Assembly (NCBI RefSeq): GCF_041508025.1
Contig: NZ_CP165719.1
Span: 736,023 to 800,022 of the forward strand
DNA length: 64,000 bases
From: Candidatus Uabimicrobium helgolandensis
GTDB lineage: Bacteria > Planctomycetota > Uabimicrobiia > Uabimicrobiales > Uabimicrobiaceae
Direction: 5' to 3'
Position numbers and translations under genes: made by a program. Shown here in pieces: positions 22,969-30,039 of the stretch. Within the stretch, counting starts at the first letter, position 1. Each line of letters opens with the position of its first letter. The notes under the pieces were generated by a model. It searched no databases and was not told the DNA's origin. It saw nothing but the letters and a program-made list of their open reading frames with translations.

Positions 22969-23126
22969 GTCGCAAAAAGTTTTTAAGAGCACGCAGCTTG
23001 CCTTTGAGTATCATAGTGGCGTTGAGCCTTCGGTTACATAGTTACAGTTATGTGCCTCTCAGGCTTTCCTTCTTTGACACTCAAATTCTACGCTGACTTG
23101 AAACGTGCTCAAAAACTTTTTGCGAC
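22969..23126. repeat. Long-range inverted repeat (about 23 bp arms, about 110-bp spacer) in the hydrolase upstream region
   Basis: gtcgcaaaaagtttttaagagcacg at 22969-93 pairs with cgtgctcaaaaactttttgcgac at 23104-26. Confidence 0.6.
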
Positions 23127-23175
23127 TCACTTAAAAACGAGTGATTACTTTCAAGTCGAAAATATTGAGGGAAAT

Positions 23176-24036
23176 ATGATGAAGATAGTCATTTTTATAT
23201 GTATATTATTTGCAAGTTGTTCACATAAATTTTACAAACCATATGTAGGCCCATATGCCGAAAATCCAGAATTTGTAGAATCTGTAACATTCCAAACGGA
23301 AGATAATCACCAATTGAAAGGTTTTTTACTAAAATCTCAAAAACCATCCAAAGGTATTGTTATCCACTTTCATGGTAACACAGGAAATGCACAAACATAC
23401 TTTATTTTTGTTGAATGGCTAATTGCTAGAGGTTACGACGTTTTTACATTTGACTATCGTGGTTATGGAGAATCACAAGGATCTCCAAGTCGTTCAGGAT
23501 TAGTGAAGGACAGTCGCGCAGCCATTAAGTACATAACTGACCAAAGAAAATGGGATAATATCTATCTTTTTGGCCAAAGTTTGGGTGGAAACCAAGCTAT
23601 CGCCGTAGTCGATGATAGTAATCGTCACTTTATCGATGGCATGATTATAGATAGTACTTTTTATTCTTACGCTTCGGTTGCGAATTACCATGTAGGAGAT
23701 TCATCTCTTTTTTATCCTTTTACTTGGATGCTAGTAGGTGGTAACAGTTATAGCGCTGCTGATTATGTCAAATCTCTACATGTACCGATCATGTTTATAC
23801 ATGGTGATAAAGACGAAATGGTTCCGATTTCTCATAGTTATCAACTATTCCAAGAATCAAGTTTTCCTAAATCATTCATAGGTGCAGTAAATTGTGGGCA
23901 TGTTGAAGCTTTAGCACGAGAACCAATCAGAGATGCCATTGTACAATTTTTAGAATCAAATTCTTTAGAATTTCAGTACATTAGAGAATCAACTGATCCC
24001 GAATATAAAAAACCTCCGAGCGAAAATCAAAATTAA
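23176..24036 (+). CDS. Alpha/beta-fold hydrolase lipoprotein
   Basis: GAGGGA lies 4 nt before ATG 23176. The signal/lipobox is ILFASCS. HGNTGN and the nucleophile elbow GQSLGG (GxSxG) are present, with a downstream D…H. Confidence 0.75.
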   Translation: MMKIVIFICILFASCSHKFYKPYVGPYAENPEFVESVTFQTEDNHQLKGFLLKSQKPSKGIVIHFHGNTGNAQTYFIFVEWLIARGYDVFTFDYRGYGESQGSPSRSGLVKDSRAAIKYITDQRKWDNIYLFGQSLGGNQAIAVVDDSNRHFIDGMIIDSTFYSYASVANYHVGDSSLFYPFTWMLVGGNSYSAADYVKSLHVPIMFIHGDKDEMVPISHSYQLFQESSFPKSFIGAVNCGHVEALAREPIRDAIVQFLESNSLEFQYIRESTDPEYKKPPSENQN

Positions 24037-24042
24037 AAGAGG

Positions 24043-24960
24043 TTACAACGTACAACAAAAATGTTCTAAGTATTTTTTTTGTTGCTCTTGGGATAGAGTA
24101 TGCCAACAGTCGCTTAACCAACTCAACAAATATAAACATGCTATAGTAATAAATTCATTGAGCATACGATGTTCTTGTTTTGAAATAGGGGCGATTTTTT
24201 GATAGTTTTCAAGGTAATTTTTGGCTTTGTGTGGACATAAACAATGCATTTTCCAGCAACTGCAGAAATAAAAAATAGCAAGTGCAATGTCAAAGATACG
24301 ATAGGTGTAAAAAATCCAATCGAAATCTAAAATCGCTACCGCTTTTTGTTGGTGAAACATAATGTTTTCTAAGTGGTAGTCACCGTGAATCATTACTTTT
24401 GGTAAGTTTGTAATTTGGGGAATAAAAGCAATACTCTTGTTGATGTTTTTCTCGATACATTGGTTATAAGAACCAAAAATTTGCTGTTGGTTGTTTTTTG
24501 CACGCAAGTTTTCCAGAAATGCTTTTATTGATATATTTTTTTGATGTGGTGGTTGCCAAGAGAAGATTGCACGATGATATGAAGCTTGTAGTTGCGCTGC
24601 ACTTTGTAAATAAATGGTATCACAGTTTGCGTCCCAATCGCCTACTATTTCATAGTCTAAAAAACCAAAAAGTGCACCATAGCGTTCACTATAGTGCACA
24701 TATGTTTTTTTGGTTTTCGTGAAAAGTAACTGTGGTGAAGTTTTGAACCTCTGTTTTTGTAAATAGCAAAGCAAATCGTGCTCGATAAGGATATCTTGTT
24801 CGCAATTATTCTTATATAAACGAAAAAAGTAGCGGTTATTATTTATAGTTACAATGTAACTATCATTTACCATTCCACCTAAACAGACACTTATATTGTT
24901 GATTTTACCTAGCGAATAGTGGCCTTCGATAAGCTCGATAATTTTGCGTTTGTTAGTCAC
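24043..24960 (-). CDS. Phosphotransferase enzyme family (APH/ChoK-like small-molecule kinase)
   Basis: The catalytic loop MIHGDYHLENIMF (HGDxxxxN) and the ILDFDW (DFD) motif are present. Confidence 0.7.
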   Translation of the reverse strand: MTNKRKIIELIEGHYSLGKINNISVCLGGMVNDSYIVTINNNRYFFRLYKNNCEQDILIEHDLLCYLQKQRFKTSPQLLFTKTKKTYVHYSERYGALFGFLDYEIVGDWDANCDTIYLQSAAQLQASYHRAIFSWQPPHQKNISIKAFLENLRAKNNQQQIFGSYNQCIEKNINKSIAFIPQITNLPKVMIHGDYHLENIMFHQQKAVAILDFDWIFYTYRIFDIALAIFYFCSCWKMHCLCPHKAKNYLENYQKIAPISKQEHRMLNEFITIACLYLLSWLSDCWHTLSQEQQKKYLEHFCCTL

Positions 24961-24976
24961 TTATTAATTATTTGCC

Positions 24977-25354
24977 TTAAAATTGATCTAATGAATAGTC
25001 ATCGTCAATTGGATTTTCATCCAGATTATATTTACCAATTACGTTGAATTTTAGTTGCGGTACTTTGCGACGGTTGATCGAAGAAGCGATTTCCGACAAT
25101 AGTATATTCATATTAAGCTGTAAGCGTTCTAAAATTTCAGCGGATGATGATGGTAAAGAGTTTGGCATAACAGTTACTAATAAACGTGAACTATTTGGTG
25201 AAGGGATCACCGAGTCTACATATAAATCACGTAAAATATCATCATCACACTCTCCAGCAAGTGCATAATTGAGAGCTTTTGCTATTTGGCCACATAGGCG
25301 CAAATCCTTGTAACTTTTTCCTGTGCTGCGGCGCCTCGGTTTTTTACGACTCAT
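24977..25354 (-). CDS. Small basic protein, tentatively RbfA-like (ribosome-binding factor A family)
   Basis: 125 aa. By eye it aligns with RbfA blocks (DLYVDSVIPSPNSSRLLVTV ~ V.V…DL..AKVYV; RRKVPQLKFNV ~ R.R.VPEL.F). The call is weak. Confidence 0.35.
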   Translation of the reverse strand: MSRKKPRRRSTGKSYKDLRLCGQIAKALNYALAGECDDDILRDLYVDSVIPSPNSSRLLVTVMPNSLPSSSAEILERLQLNMNILLSEIASSINRRKVPQLKFNVIGKYNLDENPIDDDYSLDQF

Positions 25355-25438: not shown

Positions 25439-26074
25439 TCACCTACTTAAATTATAATAATGAAGCATTATATCTCCTGCTTCCCTTGTTGATCTTCCAA
25501 AGCTAATAATGCCATCTTCGTGTCCTCCCATAGAAAATATTTTTAATTTAGCCACATCTGTACGATTAAATAATCTTTTTACTTCATTTGCCATAGCCAC
25601 TGTACCGTAAGGAATATCGGGGTTAGTAACTGGTATTCCTAAAGCTTTGGCATTTTTCCAGATCTCTGGACTATGAGTGTGAAAAACATAGCGAATATTG
25701 GTATCGGCATCGTAGATCGCTCCATGCGTGAGTGATTCAGATGATGGCTTTACAGGACCTTCTGCAACTATAAGGTTTTCTTTGATATTATATTCTAATA
25801 CGGTTGTGTAGTCATGTGTAGTTAATTGTCGTTTTAAACCTGTTTGTGTTCCGGTAATAAAAAAACTTCTTTTTCCACACGGCTGAAAAAAAGGCGGACA
25901 ACGTTTACTAACATTTCCAAAACCAGCACCATCATAACGCAGAGGATCTTGACCTATAATTTTATATGTATATAGTATATCGCGCCATTTGTCTAAACAC
26001 TCAATATTTTTTTGATGAACTGCTGGATAAGGAAAAAAGCGCAGTTGAAATTTTATGACACCCTCTTGTTCCAT
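25439..26074 (-). CDS. Class II aldolase/adducin family protein
   Basis: SSESLTHGAIY and HTHSPE (metal-binding His) are present. The ATG at 26074 with AAGGTGGA upstream was preferred over 26107. Confidence 0.7.
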   Translation of the reverse strand: MEQEGVIKFQLRFFPYPAVHQKNIECLDKWRDILYTYKIIGQDPLRYDGAGFGNVSKRCPPFFQPCGKRSFFITGTQTGLKRQLTTHDYTTVLEYNIKENLIVAEGPVKPSSESLTHGAIYDADTNIRYVFHTHSPEIWKNAKALGIPVTNPDIPYGTVAMANEVKRLFNRTDVAKLKIFSMGGHEDGIISFGRSTREAGDIMLHYYNLSR

Positions 26075-26078
26075 ATCT

Positions 26079-28262
26079 TTAATCCACCTTAAAATAATTA
26101 TGAACACCTTGTTGTAGTAGCTGCATATCGCCAGGAATCGTAAAGAAATAATACCCGTGTTTTTGTTTTTGTAAAGCCGTTTCTAGATTGGCCGCATAGC
26201 TTCCAAGAGGAATGTTGTATTTGCGCGCAGTGGTTTCTATTTTTTGTATAGCTGCTTTTAATTCAGGAGAGTCGATAACAACTCCCATTGAAACTGATAA
26301 ATCGAAAGGACCTACATGCCACAAGTCTACTCCAGGCACTTGCGCTATTTGCTCTAAATTTTCTACAGCTTCAGGTGTTTCGATCATTAGTATTGTTAGT
26401 ACAACATTATTTGCTTCAGCGAAATACTCTCTAAACTTACCTAAATAACGATTTCCTCTTTCAGCACCAACAGGCCTTTTCCCAATAGGAGGGTATTTTG
26501 TGGCATCGACAGCTTTTTTAGCATCGTCAGCGTTTTTTATACTAGGAATAATAATTCCTTTTGCTCCAGTGCCAATATATTTTTTTATGTGCGAAATATC
26601 ATTTGTCGGAATTCGTACAATGGGTACCGTTTTTTCATTTTCAGCTACACGCACGAGGTTTTGTACATCTTTTACGCTCATTTCAGTGTGCTCTGCTTCG
26701 ATCCAAAAGAAATCAAGTTGATTTCCCATTGCCATATTTTCAATTATTTTAGCGTCGGCAATAGTTACAAATCCACCAAACGTAGGTTTTTTTAACAGAC
26801 TAATTTTTTCTTTTACTTTATTGTTCATCGTTGTTGATTTTAGCTCTTTTACAATACAACGTGTGATACGTGGATATTGTTCTCCTGTTTCAACGATAAC
26901 AAAATTTTGCTCTGCTTTAAATTTCATTTCTTCATTATCTTTTGTGGTACCTTGCCATTCCAATTTTACTTGCACAACATAATTACCATCGCGATCAATT
27001 TCGACTTTTACACTTTCGATATTGTGCGTCGCTTTTTTTATTTGTGATGCTACTAGTGAGTGCCATTTTTGAAAATCAAACACTGAATACAAATTTACAT
27101 CTGGAAATTGCATGTATAAACTTGTTTGTGATAATAACGGTAGAAAGTTTTTTAAATCGGCGTTATTGTCTAATAGTGAAAACCAGTGATAAATAAAACT
27201 AATGATTTGATTTTTATTGCGTAGTTCTGGACTTATAGGTATTTTGAAAATTCGGTACGGATTTGTGGGACTGCTGCCTAAATGTATTTGTGCTGTAGTA
27301 AAATAAAGTTGTCCATTACTTATAGAAAAACTATCGGGCCAAGAGATACTTTCGTGTTGTACCAAGTATTGCACTCGTAAACCAGGTGTTAAGCGCAAAA
27401 TAGCGTTGTTTTCCAAGCTTGAAATATATAAATTACCATGAGGGTCGAAAATCAAACCATCAGCGGCACCCGTTTTTCCTAAGACTTGTACGTTTTTATG
27501 TATAGTTTCTTGTGCAATATTTTGGTCGCGTAAAACCTGTGTACGTATGCGGTATAGACTTTTTGCCGTTAAAGCTTGGTAATATAAATACTCATTGTTC
27601 GGACTTAGGGCAATGCCATCTGAGTGAACCTGTGGCGCTTTACCACCGCGCAGCCATTTCTTACCTTCGATTTCTAATACCACGTCTTCAGCATTTGTAG
27701 AAGCGTGGTTATCTAGTAATCTACGCGAAATTCCCGTTTTTAAATCGAGAACAACAATTGCACCATCACCCGAGTCTGTCATATAAGCAAATTGGTTAAT
27801 CGTGTCCACACGCACGTCATTTAAGTAGCTATTTTTTAAAACAATACTTTCGTTGAAAGTATATATTTTCAGTATTTCATTGCTACTCAGATCTATTTTG
27901 AGGAGCTTGGGTCCACCTTTTATTACACCAGAAAATTTTGGATTTGCAGGATCAAGTACCCACAAAAAATTCTGATTATCTATATACACACTTTGGACAC
28001 AGACAAAGCGATTTCGCGGAGATAAATCAAGAGTCCACCCATTCCAGTTTTTATTAGGAAAAGGTATGACACGTCCATTTTTTTGCAGTTCTCCAACAGA
28101 AATAGGTGTACGTGCTCCCCATCTTGGGTAATTAACAAATGTGCGACCACTTTGTGAAACAGCGATTCCCGTCCACTGTCTTTTGGAGTTAGCCACTTCT
28201 TCGAGAATTTTTTCTTGGGCAACACAAGCGATAAACAGTAATACAAATATAAATTTTTTCAT
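26079..28262 (-). CDS. Secreted three-domain fusion: six-bladed beta-propeller (MRJP/yellow- or SMP-30-like), a central NTF2/SnoaL-like segment, and a C-terminal HpcH/HpaI-family aldolase
   Basis: The signal peptide is MKKFIFVLLFIACVAQ. FLWVLDPANP is MRJP-like. The C-terminal 250 aa match HpcH/HpaI aldolase blocks (FFWIEAEHTE…, LTILMIETPEAVENL, DLWHVGPFDLS). The start was chosen at 28262 with AAGGAA upstream. Confidence 0.65.
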   Translation of the reverse strand: MKKFIFVLLFIACVAQEKILEEVANSKRQWTGIAVSQSGRTFVNYPRWGARTPISVGELQKNGRVIPFPNKNWNGWTLDLSPRNRFVCVQSVYIDNQNFLWVLDPANPKFSGVIKGGPKLLKIDLSSNEILKIYTFNESIVLKNSYLNDVRVDTINQFAYMTDSGDGAIVVLDLKTGISRRLLDNHASTNAEDVVLEIEGKKWLRGGKAPQVHSDGIALSPNNEYLYYQALTAKSLYRIRTQVLRDQNIAQETIHKNVQVLGKTGAADGLIFDPHGNLYISSLENNAILRLTPGLRVQYLVQHESISWPDSFSISNGQLYFTTAQIHLGSSPTNPYRIFKIPISPELRNKNQIISFIYHWFSLLDNNADLKNFLPLLSQTSLYMQFPDVNLYSVFDFQKWHSLVASQIKKATHNIESVKVEIDRDGNYVVQVKLEWQGTTKDNEEMKFKAEQNFVIVETGEQYPRITRCIVKELKSTTMNNKVKEKISLLKKPTFGGFVTIADAKIIENMAMGNQLDFFWIEAEHTEMSVKDVQNLVRVAENEKTVPIVRIPTNDISHIKKYIGTGAKGIIIPSIKNADDAKKAVDATKYPPIGKRPVGAERGNRYLGKFREYFAEANNVVLTILMIETPEAVENLEQIAQVPGVDLWHVGPFDLSVSMGVVIDSPELKAAIQKIETTARKYNIPLGSYAANLETALQKQKHGYYFFTIPGDMQLLQQGVHNYFKVD

Positions 28263-28272
28263 AGAGTATTCC

Positions 28273-29031
28273 TTAATTTTTACGAGCAATAAAAATCATT
28301 TTTTGACTAGTATGTTCGAATGGTCTTTCATCGTACCAACCAAAAACATTTTCCACTGTGAAATTTGCTTGCTCTAATAATAGCTCCATCTCATAGCGAT
28401 GCACATAACGCAATATTTCGGTATACGGATAACGTTTTACTTCGCCGTCACAGCAAAGTTCTATGATATTGTTAGCAATAAGAACTTGTCGTGCGCTATC
28501 ATAGCGTCCACTGCACCAATGGTTCAATGTTGTATTTTCTTTGTAGTTTTCAATACACATAAGCAAAGATAGTTGCCCTTGGCACTGGGGTTGTTTTAGC
28601 AAATAAAATGGATGGAATACATCAATAACAAGTTTTGCGCCGGAAGTAAGATGCTTTGATATGTTTTGCAAACATATTTTTTGATGGGTAATAGAGGGGA
28701 GTAGTAAAAAAGAATTTGCTGCAATAAAAACACCCGATATTTTTCGAGGCAAGTTAAATTTTGTCATGTCGTCTTTTTGCCATTGTATGTATTTTTGTAA
28801 ATTTAAAGGGCATTTCTCTTGTCCCTTATCCAACATTGCCTGACTGATATCTAGAGCAATCATATGATGTTTTTTGGCAGCAAGTTCAATCGCTAAACGT
28901 CCCGTACCAGTGGCAAGCTCCAATAATGGATCTTCACTAGGAGTAAATACCCTTTCGTACAGAGGGAGATCATGAAGAAAACTAACGCAGACATCGTAGA
29001 AATCAACTTCATTATGACTGGGAGCACCCAA
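28273..29031 (-). CDS. Class I SAM-dependent methyltransferase
   Basis: Motif I is LELATGTGRLAIELA and motif post-I is MIALDIS. The apparent start is TTG at 29031 with AAAGG upstream. Confidence 0.7.
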   Translation of the reverse strand: MGAPSHNEVDFYDVCVSFLHDLPLYERVFTPSEDPLLELATGTGRLAIELAAKKHHMIALDISQAMLDKGQEKCPLNLQKYIQWQKDDMTKFNLPRKISGVFIAANSFLLLPSITHQKICLQNISKHLTSGAKLVIDVFHPFYLLKQPQCQGQLSLLMCIENYKENTTLNHWCSGRYDSARQVLIANNIIELCCDGEVKRYPYTEILRYVHRYEMELLLEQANFTVENVFGWYDERPFEHTSQKMIFIARKN

Positions 29032-29445: not shown

Positions 29446-30039
29446 CTACGCCATATAAATAGTAAGACCAATAGAAACAAATACAGAGCTAACTAAACCA
29501 ACAACTGCCATAACACTTGAAGAGTTTAATTTTCTTTGTGTGCTTCTCTCTAAGTTTTCGCATACTTGTGGAAGAATTTTGTAATTTTGATACAAAATAA
29601 TGGGGGATATCACAAAGGAAAGTCCGTAAACCAGAGACATATAGCCTAATTTGTAATTTTTTTCGGCTACCGCTTTAATAGAGTCATAGTCGCGCAGTAA
29701 ATCTTCGTCTTTTATTTGCTTGCCGTTACTTTCTTTTAAGAGATTAGTGTATCTTTTGTAAACAGAGCATTCTTTGCCTTCATACACTAATTGTAAACAA
29801 ATAGGACACTCTTTTTCTGTTATTTCTTGTTTTTCCAGCTCTATTGCTTCAAGCGAAGGATCAGCTTCTGGCAAAGGTAAAGCAGTTAGTTTCGTAGGCT
29901 GAGGAACTCCAAGAGTTAATGTAGCTAGGCACCTTGGACATTTGATTTTTTTCCCATAAAAATTATCAGGGACACTCTTTCTGTAAGAGCAGAATGGACA
30001 ATCAAAAGGAATAGACATTGCGATTACCTTTATATTCAT
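29446..30039 (-). CDS. Double zinc-ribbon membrane protein (hypothetical)
   Basis: CPFC…CPRC and CPIC…C pairs are present, with two C-terminal TM helices. Confidence 0.55.
   Translation of the reverse strand: MNIKVIAMSIPFDCPFCSYRKSVPDNFYGKKIKCPRCLATLTLGVPQPTKLTALPLPEADPSLEAIELEKQEITEKECPICLQLVYEGKECSVYKRYTNLLKESNGKQIKDEDLLRDYDSIKAVAEKNYKLGYMSLVYGLSFVISPIILYQNYKILPQVCENLERSTQRKLNSSSVMAVVGLVSSVFVSIGLTIYMA

What the first reader, a model, noticed from the sequence alone, without database searches (positions are those of the whole stretch)
26079..28262. Signal-peptide-bearing fusion of a six-bladed beta-propeller, an NTF2-like segment and an HpcH/HpaI aldolase
HpcH/HpaI aldolases are normally cytoplasmic, stand-alone enzymes of about 250 aa. 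Here the domain is the C-terminus of a 727-aa protein. That protein begins with a cleavable-looking signal peptide and an MRJP/yellow- or SMP-30-like beta-propeller (FLWVLDPANP). An about 110-aa linker follows that resembles NTF2/SnoaL folds. To my knowledge this architecture is undescribed. It suggests either an exported aldolase, or a propeller lactonase/hydrolase activity channelled to aldol cleavage.
Basis: partly seen in the sequence, partly recalled or inferred. Interest (0 to 1): 0.6.

Follow-up and report, generated by a model that had tools for sequence, protein, structure and literature searches.

The report
Exported propeller–NTF2–aldolase fusion enzyme
A prey-engulfing planctomycete encodes a real, conserved, signal-peptide-bearing protein that joins a Yellow/royal-jelly-type propeller to an NTF2-like domain and a normally cytoplasmic pyruvate aldolase, and the aldolase belongs to a small, apparently undescribed family of exported aldolases whose substrate is unknown.

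Summary
The minus-strand ORF 26079..28262 encodes 727 aa. It comprises a short signal peptide with a lipobox-like Cys13, an MRJP/Yellow propeller (about residues 17-345), an NTF2-fold domain (350-471) and an HpcH/HpaI class II pyruvate aldolase (477-727) with all catalytic residues retained.

It is not an assembly artefact. Intact 727-aa orthologues in the same gene order occur in Ca. Uabimicrobium amorphum and in a metagenomic relative. All three domains are under strong purifying selection.

The main new point is that the NTF2-like + aldolase half is itself a pre-existing exported module. About 30 clusters, mostly from Riflebacteria, form a monophyletic HpcH clade. 27 of 30 carry signal peptides, against 1-3 of 90 canonical relatives.

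The NTF2-like domain is a mobile partner. It occurs on either side of the aldolase and on either side of the propeller.

The best reading is a Sec-exported, probably lipid-anchored, multi-step small-molecule enzyme ending in metal-dependent aldol cleavage. The substrate is unknown.

It is a new variant of known kinds, of moderate interest.

The parts
28270..28274 (-). Ribosome-binding site AAGGA, 7 nt upstream of the ATG, overlapping the stop codon (28273-28275) of the upstream methyltransferase gene
   Evidence: Sequence read directly; ORF coordinates. The overlap implies translational coupling.
28215..28262 (-). Signal peptide, residues 1-16 (MKKFIFVLLFIAC VAQ). The lipobox-like FIAC has Cys13 at codon 28224-28226.
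   Evidence: Crude hydrophobicity test: best 9-residue window Kyte-Doolittle mean 3.44, no charged residues, KK before it. Cys13 and the [F][IV][AS]C motif are conserved in P0002 and U. amorphum. SignalP and LipoP were not available.
27228..28214 (-). Bacterial MRJP/Yellow-type beta-propeller domain, residues 17-345
   Evidence: Pfam MRJP 101.9 bits against a 19.8 cut-off. 2qe8 E 5e-32 with the single sequence and 1e-55 with a family profile. Residues at least 90% identical across the 122-sequence alignment: Q90, D104, N148, D149, R151, D215, D268, W308, D310.
26850..27215 (-). NTF2-fold domain, residues 350-471 (FIYHWFSLLD motif). Invariant in the 18-sequence alignment: W360, F361, D365, F373, P387, F397, W400, H413, W436, Q452, I466.
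   Evidence: Local HMM search, alignment A2, AF2 pLDDT 95.7, Foldseek PDB TM 0.77-0.88 to NTF2-like structures at 8-17% identity. Pfam NTF2 is only sub-threshold.
26082..26834 (-). HpcH/HpaI class II (metal-dependent, pyruvate-specific) aldolase domain, residues 477-727. Catalytic residues: E524/H525 (H525 codon 26688-26690), R550 (26613-26615), E628 (26379-26381), D654 (26301-26303).
   Evidence: Pfam, NCBIfam sub-threshold equivalogs, PDB alignment to HpaI with residue counting, conservation analysis, AF2 module pLDDT 92.7, Foldseek target TM 0.83-0.89 to HpaI/HpcH/GarL/YfaU.
26079..26081 (-). Stop codon. The next gene's ATG lies 4 nt downstream at 26074.
28273..29031 (-). Upstream co-oriented gene: class I SAM-dependent methyltransferase (252 aa, no signal peptide). 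Conserved neighbour in all three Uabimicrobium loci.
   Evidence: Pfam Methyltransf_25/31/11; NCBIfam hits all far below cut-off; synteny.
25439..26074 (-). Downstream co-oriented gene: divergent Aldolase_II/adducin-family protein (211 aa, no signal peptide). Conserved neighbour.
   Evidence: Pfam PF00596 45.5 bits; NCBIfam hits all far below cut-off; synteny.

Best explanation
The gene encodes a genuine three-domain protein that is exported by the Sec pathway and probably lipid-anchored at Cys13. It is specific to the prey-engulfing planctomycete genus Ca. Uabimicrobium.

It arose when a secreted bacterial MRJP/Yellow-type propeller was fused in front of a pre-existing exported two-domain module, an NTF2-like domain plus an HpcH/HpaI class II pyruvate aldolase. 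That module occurs on its own, behind its own signal peptide, in Riflebacteria and other uncultured bacteria.

Shown here: the domains, their folds, the retained aldolase catalytic set, the signal-peptide character of the whole aldolase clade, the recurrence of the fusion and purifying selection on it.

Inferred: outside the cytoplasm (in the periplasm or on a membrane surface), the aldolase domain uses a divalent metal held by E628 and D654. With R550 and E524/H525 it cleaves, or forms, the C3-C4 bond of a 4-hydroxy-2-oxo acid, giving pyruvate plus an aldehyde. The NTF2-like domain, with its invariant D365/H413/Q452 and a ring of tryptophans, supplies a small-molecule pocket that prepares or delivers the substrate. 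The propeller performs or captures an upstream step.

The substrate is not known. The most likely class, judged from the company these domains keep, is an aromatic/quinone-derived or reactive-carbonyl small molecule met in the cell envelope. Sugar or ulosonic acids are the second candidate.
For: The architecture is real and conserved. P0001 is 100% identical and annotated only as 'L-dopachrome tautomerase-related'. P0002 is 80% identical, 727 aa, with the same neighbours. The U. amorphum chromosome L010 has an intact 727-aa orthologue with the same neighbours. Synonymous differences are saturated (pS 0.73-0.79) while pN is only 0.08-0.15 in each of the three domains, and the junctions are preserved.

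Exported aldolase clade. The C-terminal 392 aa match stand-alone proteins of about 398 aa at 44-55% identity over 96-99% of their length. 27 of 30 clade members have signal-peptide-like N-termini, against 1-3 of 90 canonical HpcH proteins. Typical -3/-1 cleavage motifs such as SYA|E, SFA|N and LSA|N are visible. The clade is monophyletic with NJ bootstrap 79/100.

Aldolase competence. E524/H525, R550, E628 and D654 align with HpaI E44/H45, R70, E149 and D175 and are at least 85% conserved in both clades. The roles of these residues are taken from PMC8560999. The modelled fold matches HpaI.

The NTF2-like domain is a functional partner, not a linker. It has a high-confidence fold and invariant polar residues. 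It is found as middle-aldolase, aldolase-middle (P0138), middle-propeller (P0004), propeller-middle-SnoaL (P0010) and peptidase_C69-middle-propeller (P0003).

Origin of the fusion. Both the NTF2-like and aldolase parts are closest to Riflebacteria P0122 (42% for the domain, 54-55% for the module). The propeller is closest to the multi-domain secreted propellers P0003-P0005 (54-58%).

Substrate class. The propeller's fusion partners are DJ-1/PfpI, VOC/glyoxalase, peroxiredoxin, SnoaL, Polyketide_cyc2 and alpha/beta hydrolase. The NTF2-like domain's partners are DJ-1/PfpI, cupin, ABM monooxygenase, ankyrin and SnoaL. DJ-1_PfpI plus AraC sit directly upstream of the module in two Riflebacteria contigs. 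Most propeller relatives also carry signal peptides. The only bacterial MRJP studied, DR1790, is membrane-located and its loss alters oxidative-stress and radiation survival (PMC4507557).
Against: Export is inferred from a home-made hydrophobicity test and visual motifs, not from SignalP/LipoP or experiment. Cys13 is unusually close to the N-terminus, and the strict lipobox regular expression fails by one residue (K3).

No enzymatic activity has been shown for any member of the exported clade. The clade also replaces a residue that is Asp in 100% of the canonical comparison set by Gly564, and changes Q147 to M626 and F to H649, so its chemistry may differ from HpaI.

NCBIfam equivalog models for HpaI, GarL and RhmA are all missed by a wide margin (127 bits against a cut-off of 369).

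The genomic neighbourhoods give no pathway. The window's neighbours are generic cytoplasmic genes, and other contexts are not conserved.

The two conserved DJ-1/AraC contexts come from related Riflebacteria and may reflect shared ancestry only. The domain-partner argument for the substrate class is circumstantial.

pTM for the module is 0.74 and no error map was available, so a fixed NTF2-aldolase interface is not shown.
Confidence: 0.6

Rival explanations
1. Sugar-lactone pipeline. The propeller is a lactonase that opens a sugar lactone, the NTF2-like domain dehydrates or isomerises the sugar acid, and the aldolase splits the resulting 2-keto-3-deoxy sugar acid into pyruvate and an aldehyde. 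A variant has the protein degrading prey-surface ulosonic acids such as KDO or sialic-type acids in the engulfment compartment.
For: The HpcH family includes the sugar-acid aldolases GarL, RhmA/YfaU and KDGal-cleaving AbHpaI (PMC8560999). The SGL lactonase model gives a weak hit at residues 193-296, and JGI names relatives 'sugar lactone lactonase YvrE'. The best-scoring relative outside the exported clade, P0151, is fused to an AGE-family sugar epimerase. The domain order matches the pathway order. The host obligately feeds on Gram-negative prey (PMC11481906).
Against: The SGL hit is below its cut-off (21.4 against 26.3 bits). A family profile reaches the lactonase Drp35 only over 69 residues at E 1e-4 and streptogramin lactonase at E 0.02, while MRJP/Yellow structures score 1e-55 to 5e-5. 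No NTF2-fold sugar-acid dehydratase is known (own knowledge). No sugar dehydrogenase, transporter or glycosidase is a conserved neighbour. The exported module is mostly in Riflebacteria, which are not known predators.
Confidence: 0.2
2. Scaffold or pseudo-enzyme. The aldolase barrel (normally a hexamer) and the NTF2-like domain (often oligomeric) serve mainly to assemble several propellers on the membrane, and the aldolase chemistry is vestigial.
For: HpaI-type aldolases are hexamers (PMC8560999). NTF2-like hubs such as CaMKII oligomerise and are among the structural matches. The clade lost an Asp that is invariant in the canonical comparison set (G564).
Against: All five catalytic or metal-binding residues are conserved throughout the exported clade. 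Many clade members are signal peptide + aldolase only, with nothing to scaffold (P0139, P0141, P0143-P0147). Purifying selection on the aldolase domain is as strong as on the others.
Confidence: 0.08
3. Cytoplasmic enzyme. The N-terminal hydrophobic stretch is not a functional export signal, and the protein is an ordinary cytoplasmic multi-domain catabolic enzyme.
For: The signal is very short (Cys at position 13) and was not scored by a trained predictor. A subgroup of MRJP propellers (PF16247 + MRJP) clearly lacks signal peptides. The flanking operon genes are cytoplasmic.
Against: An N-terminal signal of the same kind is conserved in all three orthologues. Both parent modules, propeller and NTF2-aldolase, are signal-peptide-bearing in nearly all close relatives. 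The mature N-terminus aligns with that of secreted P0010 (LLEEVANS...). Even an uncleaved KK-hydrophobic N-terminus would place the bulk of the protein outside by the positive-inside rule (established knowledge).
Confidence: 0.07
4. Artefact. A frameshift or mis-assembly in the Nanopore-based HlEnr_7 genome has joined two or three separate genes.
For: The genome was assembled from Nanopore reads of amplified DNA (PMC11481906).
Against: An identical 727-aa architecture with no gaps occurs in the independent complete genome of U. amorphum (AP019860) and in a Logan metagenome contig. The junction regions are conserved at protein level (65-87% identity) despite saturated synonymous change. The bridging NTF2-like domain is found attached to each flanking domain in unrelated organisms.
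Confidence: 0.01

Closest known systems
HpaI/HpcH, GarL, RhmA(YfaU): class II divalent-metal-dependent pyruvate aldolases (Pfam PF03328; PDB 4b5s, 2v5j, 1dxe, 2vws, 7et8)
   Same: Same (beta/alpha)8 fold (target TM 0.83-0.89) at 26-32% identity. The same metal ligands (E628, D654) and catalytic residues (R550, E524/H525) are present.
   Different: The known enzymes are stand-alone proteins of about 250-260 aa without signal peptides. This one is the C-terminal third of an exported 727-aa protein. It belongs to a separate clade with its own signature (G564 in place of an Asp invariant in the canonical set, M626 for Gln, H649 for Phe, GGFVTI, GYxFFTIPGDMQLLQ). It misses every equivalog cut-off. 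Its substrate is unknown.
Stand-alone exported 'NTF2-like + HpcH aldolase' proteins of Candidatus Riflebacteria (P0122-P0137, about 398 aa; NCBI names them 'HpcH/HpaI aldolase/citrate lyase family protein' or 'hypothetical protein')
   Same: Co-linear with residues 336-727 at 44-55% identity and 96-99% coverage. They have the same two domains and the same catalytic and NTF2 invariants, and all are signal-peptide-bearing.
   Different: They lack the propeller. Their signal peptides look like the type I (AxA) kind rather than lipobox. Their genomic contexts differ (DJ-1/PfpI + AraC upstream in some). None has been characterised.
Bacterial MRJP/Yellow-family propellers (PDB 2qe8 from Anabaena variabilis; Deinococcus DR1790) and insect Yellow / dopachrome conversion enzyme / MRJP1 / sand-fly LJM11
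   Same: Pfam MRJP membership. Full-length homology to 2qe8 (E 1e-55 with a profile) and to DCE, MRJP1 and LJM11. The family is typically secreted or membrane-associated (PMC6678240; PMC4507557).
   Different: Most family members are single-domain (PMC6678240), and an HpcH partner is not listed there. The bacterial family's invariant polar residues (N148/D149, D215, D268, D310) are largely kept in 2qe8 but not in insect DCE (alignments). Dopachrome conversion should therefore not be assumed despite the NCBI name.
NTF2-like/SnoaL superfamily small-molecule enzymes and binders (ActVI-ORFA 5bka, Aln2 6p7l, putative scytalone dehydratase 3ef8, limonene epoxide hydrolase 5aih, NTF2 1oun)
   Same: Same alpha+beta cone fold (TM 0.72-0.88). 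There are invariant polar residues inside an aromatic-lined pocket, as in the enzymes of this superfamily.
   Different: Identity to any solved structure is only 8-17%. No Pfam model reaches its cut-off. It belongs to a distinct family of at least 731 clusters with the FVYxWFxxFD motif, mostly secreted stand-alone proteins. Its catalytic residues could not be mapped to any known member.

Membership tests
HpcH/HpaI class II pyruvate aldolase (PF03328) | Significant match to the family model above the curated cut-off | tested here: met
   83.9 bits against a cut-off of 25, residues 497-704.
HpcH/HpaI class II pyruvate aldolase (PF03328) | (beta/alpha)8 barrel with C-terminal helix | tested here: met
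   AF2 module model pLDDT 92.7 with eight beta/alpha units. Foldseek target TM 0.83-0.89 and rmsd about 2.1 A to HpaI, HpcH, GarL and YfaU.
HpcH/HpaI class II pyruvate aldolase (PF03328) | Metal ligands Glu149 and Asp175 (E. coli HpaI numbering; Glu151/Asp177 in AbHpaI, PMC8560999) | tested here: met
   E628 and D654; at least 85% conserved in both the exported and canonical sets.
HpcH/HpaI class II pyruvate aldolase (PF03328) | Catalytic Arg70 and Glu44/His45 (PMC8560999) | tested here: met
   R550 and E524/H525.
HpcH/HpaI class II pyruvate aldolase (PF03328) | Orthology to a characterised specificity (HpaI, GarL, RhmA equivalog models) | tested here: not met
   Scores against cut-offs: TIGR02311 127 against 369, PRK10558 119 against 393, TIGR03239 114 against 407, PRK10128 93 against 441 bits. 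It is a family member but not an orthologue of any named enzyme.
HpcH/HpaI class II pyruvate aldolase (PF03328) | Cytoplasmic, stand-alone protein of about 250 aa (the usual form, not strictly defining) | tested here: not met
   It is the C-terminal domain of a 727-aa protein with an N-terminal signal. The clade shows 27/30 signal-peptide-like N-termini against 1-3/90 in canonical relatives.
HpcH/HpaI class II pyruvate aldolase (PF03328) | Metal-dependent aldol cleavage / pyruvate enolisation activity; hexameric assembly | not testable with these tools
   Needs enzymology and SEC-MALS or multimer modelling.
MRJP/Yellow (PF03022) | Significant match to the family model and to solved members over the whole domain | tested here: met
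   101.9 bits against a cut-off of 19.8. With a family profile: 2qe8 E 1e-55, DCE 7e-18, MRJP1 7e-15, LJM11 5e-5.
MRJP/Yellow (PF03022) | Six-bladed beta-propeller fold | not tested
The fold is inferred from homology to structures that the literature describes as six-bladed (PMC6678240, PMC6105727).
MRJP/Yellow (PF03022) | Dopachrome-converting activity (basis of the NCBI name 'L-dopachrome tautomerase-related') | not testable with these tools
   The bacterial-family invariant polar residues are not conserved in the DCE alignment, which argues against assuming this activity.
SMP-30/gluconolactonase/LRE (SGL, PF08450) | Match above the curated cut-off | tested here: not met
   21.4 bits against a cut-off of 26.3, partial match at residues 193-296. 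The profile reaches lactonase Drp35 only over 69 residues at E 1e-4.
SMP-30/gluconolactonase/LRE (SGL, PF08450) | Central divalent-metal site (Glu/Asn/Asp ligands) | not tested
   Motifs YLNDVRVD, HSDGIAL and AADGLIFD resemble SMP30 motifs as I recall them. This is a lead only; no alignment was made here.
NTF2-like superfamily (SnoaL clan) | alpha+beta cone fold | tested here: met
   AF2 pLDDT 95.7. 202 PDB matches at E <= 0.001, all of the listed top matches NTF2-like, TM 0.77-0.88 among the top ten.
NTF2-like superfamily (SnoaL clan) | Membership of a curated Pfam family | tested here: not met
   Best hit is NTF2 PF02136 at 14.9 bits against a cut-off of 21. Only 25 of 147 family relatives touch SnoaL_2.
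Bacterial lipoprotein (type II signal peptide) | Positive n-region, short hydrophobic core, lipobox [LVI][ASTVI][GAS]C with conserved Cys | tested here: inconclusive
   MKK + FIFVLLFIA + C13. FIAC or FVSC is conserved in three orthologues. However, Cys13 is earlier than usual and the strict pattern of six uncharged residues before the lipobox fails at K3. No trained predictor was available.

The most novel reading that the evidence does not exclude
Exported HpcH/HpaI aldolases, usually teamed with a dedicated NTF2-like domain, constitute an undescribed extracytoplasmic carbon-carbon bond-cleaving system. In the phagocytosis-like predator Ca. Uabimicrobium it has been welded to a Yellow-type propeller to form a membrane-anchored three-step enzyme. 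That enzyme would break down or detoxify a prey- or environment-derived small molecule in the periplasm-derived engulfment compartment, releasing pyruvate outside the cytoplasm.
Probability: 0.15. Interest if true: 0.75.

Novelty: new variant of a known kind. Interest (0 to 1): 0.5.

Why it matters
Class II pyruvate aldolases are textbook cytoplasmic enzymes of aromatic and sugar-acid catabolism and are popular biocatalysts. A monophyletic clade of them that carries signal peptides, usually with a conserved NTF2-like partner domain, points to aldol chemistry in the periplasm or on the cell surface. I found no description of this in the literature.

The Uabimicrobium fusion acts as a Rosetta stone. 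It functionally links three protein families: bacterial Yellow/MRJP propellers, an unmodelled NTF2-like family of at least 731 clusters, and the exported aldolases. No bacterial member of any of the three has a known biochemical function.

Because the host is one of the only bacteria known to engulf prey, an envelope-located catabolic enzyme is also a candidate component of its digestive machinery.

If the protein turns out to act on an ordinary substrate, the finding reduces to a lineage-specific domain fusion of modest interest.

Tried and rejected
1. Full-length alignment A1 for structure prediction. MAFFT dragged the last third of the propeller-only sequences onto the aldolase region, so I abandoned it and predicted by module. 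As a result the propeller itself was never modelled.

2. The third homologue search, with the 134-aa middle domain alone, found no candidates because of the word index, so that search was wasted. I replaced it with an exhaustive profile search.

3. An exact look-up of the window protein in the contig collection found nothing.

4. Gene neighbourhoods gave no conserved pathway. Window neighbours are generic and far below family cut-offs. Six other contexts share only DJ-1/PfpI + AraC, and that in two related Riflebacteria.

5. There are no paralogues of any of the three domains elsewhere in the 64-kb window.

6. Literature searches for exported, periplasmic or signal-peptide HpcH aldolases returned nothing relevant. 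One search failed on syntax.

7. The afdb50 fold library was unavailable.

8. The lactonase reading was rejected as a membership claim.

9. The assembly artefact was rejected.

10. The idea that NTF2-bearing aldolases form one subclade was rejected. They are not monophyletic within the exported clade (0/100 bootstraps), so the domain was gained or lost repeatedly, or the tree is unresolved.

11. A Tat signal was considered. The N-termini read show no clear twin-arginine consensus (only P0124 has an RR pair). The aldolase needs only a metal ion, so Sec export is plausible.


Full report
**1. What is in the sequence**

Between 26079 and 28262 the minus strand carries one uninterrupted ORF. The ATG at 28262 gives 727 aa. 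An in-frame TTG at 28289 would add nine residues. It would overlap the end of the upstream gene, and no orthologue uses it.

An AAGGA ribosome-binding site sits 7 nt before the ATG and overlaps the upstream gene's stop codon. The next gene starts 4 nt after the stop. GC content (0.34-0.38) matches the surroundings.

The protein is 100% identical to an NCBI entry from Candidatus Uabimicrobium sp. HlEnr_7, named only 'L-dopachrome tautomerase-related protein'. This organism is the prey-engulfing planctomycete 'Ca. U. helgolandensis' (PMC11481906).

**2. Domains**

Pfam places an MRJP domain at residues 88-290 (101.9 bits against a cut-off of 19.8). It places an HpcH_HpaI domain at 497-704 (83.9 bits against 25).

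Against solved structures, residues 28-335 match the uncharacterised Anabaena propeller 2qe8 (E 5e-32). Residues 492-718 match E. coli HpaI (E 2e-28).

A profile of 51 propeller domains scores as follows:

| Structure | E-value |
|---|---|
| 2qe8 | 1e-55 |
| Insect dopachrome conversion enzyme | 7e-18 |
| MRJP1 | 7e-15 |
| Sand-fly LJM11 | 5e-5 |
| Lactonase Drp35 | 1e-4, over 69 residues only |
| Streptogramin B lactonase | 0.02 |

The SGL lactonase Pfam model is below its cut-off. The propeller is therefore a member of the MRJP/Yellow family. 'Lactonase' is no more than a superfamily-level resemblance.

The bacterial family has a sharply conserved polar set: Q90, D104, N148, D149, R151, D215, D268 and D310. 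This set is largely kept in 2qe8 but not in the insect enzyme. The dopachrome name should therefore not be read as a function.

**3. The middle segment**

Residues 350-471 are not a linker. A local HMM search finds the same 122-aa domain in 23 of the fetched proteins. An alignment of 18 excised copies has these invariant residues: W360, F361, D365, F373, P387, F397, W400, H413, W436, Q452 and I466.

AlphaFold2 models the domain at pLDDT 95.7 and pTM 0.88. Foldseek returns 202 PDB matches at E <= 0.001. The listed top matches are all NTF2-superfamily structures: ActVI-ORFA, NTF2, a putative scytalone dehydratase, the CaMKII hub and limonene epoxide hydrolase. The top ten have TM 0.77-0.88, at only 8-17% identity.

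No Pfam model reaches its cut-off. An exhaustive profile search finds 731 representative clusters. Most are stand-alone proteins of 140-180 aa, and about 90 of the top 147 have signal-peptide-like N-termini. The domain belongs to a sizeable family that is essentially unmodelled.

**4. The aldolase**

By residue counting on the HMMER alignment, HpaI H45, R70, E149 and D175 correspond to H525, R550, E628 and D654. These four residues and E524 are at least 85% conserved in both the exported and canonical sets.

Their roles are documented for EcHpaI and AbHpaI (PMC8560999). Glu and Asp are the metal ligands. Arg stabilises the enolate and anchors the C4-OH. His/Glu act through water as general acid and base.

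The NTF2-aldolase module models at pLDDT 92.7. Its barrel superposes on HpaI, HpcH, GarL and YfaU with target TM 0.83-0.89. No solved structure covers both domains.

The motifs are therefore not degenerate. However, every NCBIfam equivalog cut-off is missed by a factor of about three. The clade also has its own signature: G564 for an Asp invariant in the canonical comparison set, M626 for Gln, and H649 for Phe.

**5. Not an artefact**

Three lines of evidence remove the concern:

- A metagenomic relative, P0002, is 727 aa and 80% identical, with the same neighbours.
- The complete Ca. U. amorphum chromosome encodes an intact 727-aa orthologue in the same gene order: RNase HII, zinc-ribbon membrane protein, methyltransferase, fusion, Aldolase_II, RbfA-like.
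- Between the window and either orthologue, synonymous differences are saturated (pS 0.73-0.79) while pN is 0.14-0.15, 0.08-0.09 and 0.09 for the propeller, NTF2-like and aldolase domains. Both junctions are preserved.

**6. The wider picture: an exported aldolase clade**

Searching with the C-terminal 392 aa alone found stand-alone proteins of about 398 aa. They are 44-55% identical over 96-99% of the query and are mostly from Candidatus Riflebacteria. Each consists of a signal peptide, the same NTF2-like domain and the aldolase.

Other members show different arrangements:

- **Signal peptide + aldolase only:** P0139, P0141, P0143-P0147.
- **NTF2-like domain after the aldolase:** P0138.
- **Two aldolase copies plus a C-terminal membrane anchor:** P0121.

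With a simple hydrophobicity test, 27 of the 30 closest clusters have signal-peptide-like N-termini. The three exceptions are two fragments and one mis-called start. Among 90 canonical proteins of about 255 aa, only 1-3 pass the test. Classical -3/-1 cleavage motifs are visible.

In a neighbour-joining tree the 33 exported-type domains form exactly one clade, with bootstrap 79/100. I found no literature on such enzymes.

**7. How the fusion was built**

The same NTF2-like domain also occurs with propellers and without any aldolase:

- **In front of the propeller:** P0004.
- **Behind the propeller:** P0010.
- **Between a C69 peptidase and a propeller:** P0003.

Both the NTF2-like and aldolase parts of the window protein are closest to Riflebacteria P0122. 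The propeller is closest to multi-domain secreted propellers (P0003-P0005, 54-58%). The simplest history is that a secreted propeller was fused in front of an exported NTF2-aldolase module, keeping only the first signal peptide.

That signal (MKKFIFVLLFIAC) has a lipobox-like FIAC with Cys13 conserved in all three orthologues. Lipid anchoring is therefore plausible but unproven.

**8. What it probably does**

Shown: the domain folds, the catalytic residues, the signal-peptide character, the recurrence of the fusion and the selection on it.

Inferred: the protein works outside the cytoplasm and ends with metal-dependent cleavage or formation of a 4-hydroxy-2-oxo acid.

The substrate is unknown. 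The best hint is the company the domains keep:

- **Propeller fusion partners:** DJ-1/PfpI, VOC/glyoxalase, peroxiredoxin, SnoaL, Polyketide_cyc2, alpha/beta hydrolases and ankyrin repeats.
- **NTF2-like domain fusion partners:** DJ-1/PfpI, cupin, ABM monooxygenase, ankyrin and SnoaL.
- **Neighbourhood:** DJ-1/PfpI plus an AraC regulator sit directly upstream of the module in two Riflebacteria contigs.

These are typical of enzymes handling aromatic, quinone-like or reactive-carbonyl small molecules. The only studied bacterial MRJP protein affects oxidative-stress survival (PMC4507557). I therefore rank that substrate class first, at roughly 0.35.

Sugar or ulosonic acids come second, at roughly 0.2. 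The support is the sugar-acid members of the HpcH family and the AGE-epimerase fusion P0151.

Neighbouring genes in the window are generic cytoplasmic genes far below family cut-offs and do not help.

**9. Verdict**

The 'exported aldolase' reading is supported by comparative sequence evidence. The 'lactonase channelling' reading is not.

The three-domain architecture is confined to Ca. Uabimicrobium and is a new variant built from known kinds of domain. The more general and more interesting result is the exported HpcH clade and its NTF2-like partner.

Interest is moderate (0.5). A specialist would be surprised by signal-peptide-bearing class II pyruvate aldolases. However, no function has been established and no long-standing question becomes directly testable.

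Noticed in passing
P0121 (ENA contig, 685 aa); also P0149, P0150: An exported-clade aldolase with a signal-like N-terminus, two identical tandem aldolase copies and a C-terminal transmembrane anchor with a charged tail. With P0149 and P0150 it forms a subclade with sequence features that look eukaryotic to me. It could be a eukaryotic type I membrane protein or a gene-model or assembly artefact.
   Followed up: partly
P0151 (Bdellovibrionales MAG, 683 aa): An HpcH aldolase fused to an AGE-family (N-acylglucosamine 2-epimerase-like) domain, without a signal peptide. It is the best-scoring relative outside the exported clade and hints at ulosonic or amino-sugar acid chemistry.
   Followed up: no
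L002/L003 8049-11197 and L006 6335-9197: A DJ-1_PfpI gene, an AraC-type regulator and the exported NTF2-aldolase gene lie in a row in two Riflebacteria contigs. The AraC gene overlaps the aldolase gene by 8 nt in L006.
   Followed up: partly
NTF2-like family (P0241-P0387): The FVYxWFxxFD NTF2-like domain defines a family of at least 731 representative clusters. Most are secreted stand-alone proteins of 140-180 aa, and some are tandem. Only 25 of 147 touch Pfam SnoaL_2, so it appears to lack a dedicated family model.
   Followed up: partly
window 23050-24036 (+): An alpha/beta-hydrolase ORF whose listed ATG start is probably too far upstream. The internal start MKIVIFICILFASCSHKF is a lipoprotein-type signal very like that of the fusion protein.
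   Followed up: no
window 29446-30039 (-); L001 870-1442; L010 3554-4135: A protein of about 190-197 aa with an N-terminal zinc-ribbon-like CxxC...CxxC and C-terminal hydrophobic helices. It has no family assignment and is conserved next to RNase HII in all three Uabimicrobium loci.
   Followed up: no
window 24977-25354 (-) and 24043-24960 (-): An RbfA-like ORF and a homoserine-kinase-like (APH-family) ORF both score well below the curated family cut-offs. The divergence may simply reflect this deep-branching planctomycete lineage.
   Followed up: no
window 28273-29031, 26079-28262, 25439-26074 (-): Three tightly packed genes. The fusion gene's ribosome-binding site overlaps the methyltransferase stop codon, and the Aldolase_II start lies 4 nt after the fusion gene's stop. 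An exported enzyme is thus flanked by two cytoplasmic enzymes in a gene order conserved across the genus. No functional link could be established.
   Followed up: partly
Propeller hits P0093, P0098, P0106-P0119 (PF16247 + MRJP): A subgroup of MRJP propellers carries an N-terminal domain (Pfam PF16247) that I did not examine and no signal peptide. The family is therefore not exclusively exported.
   Followed up: no
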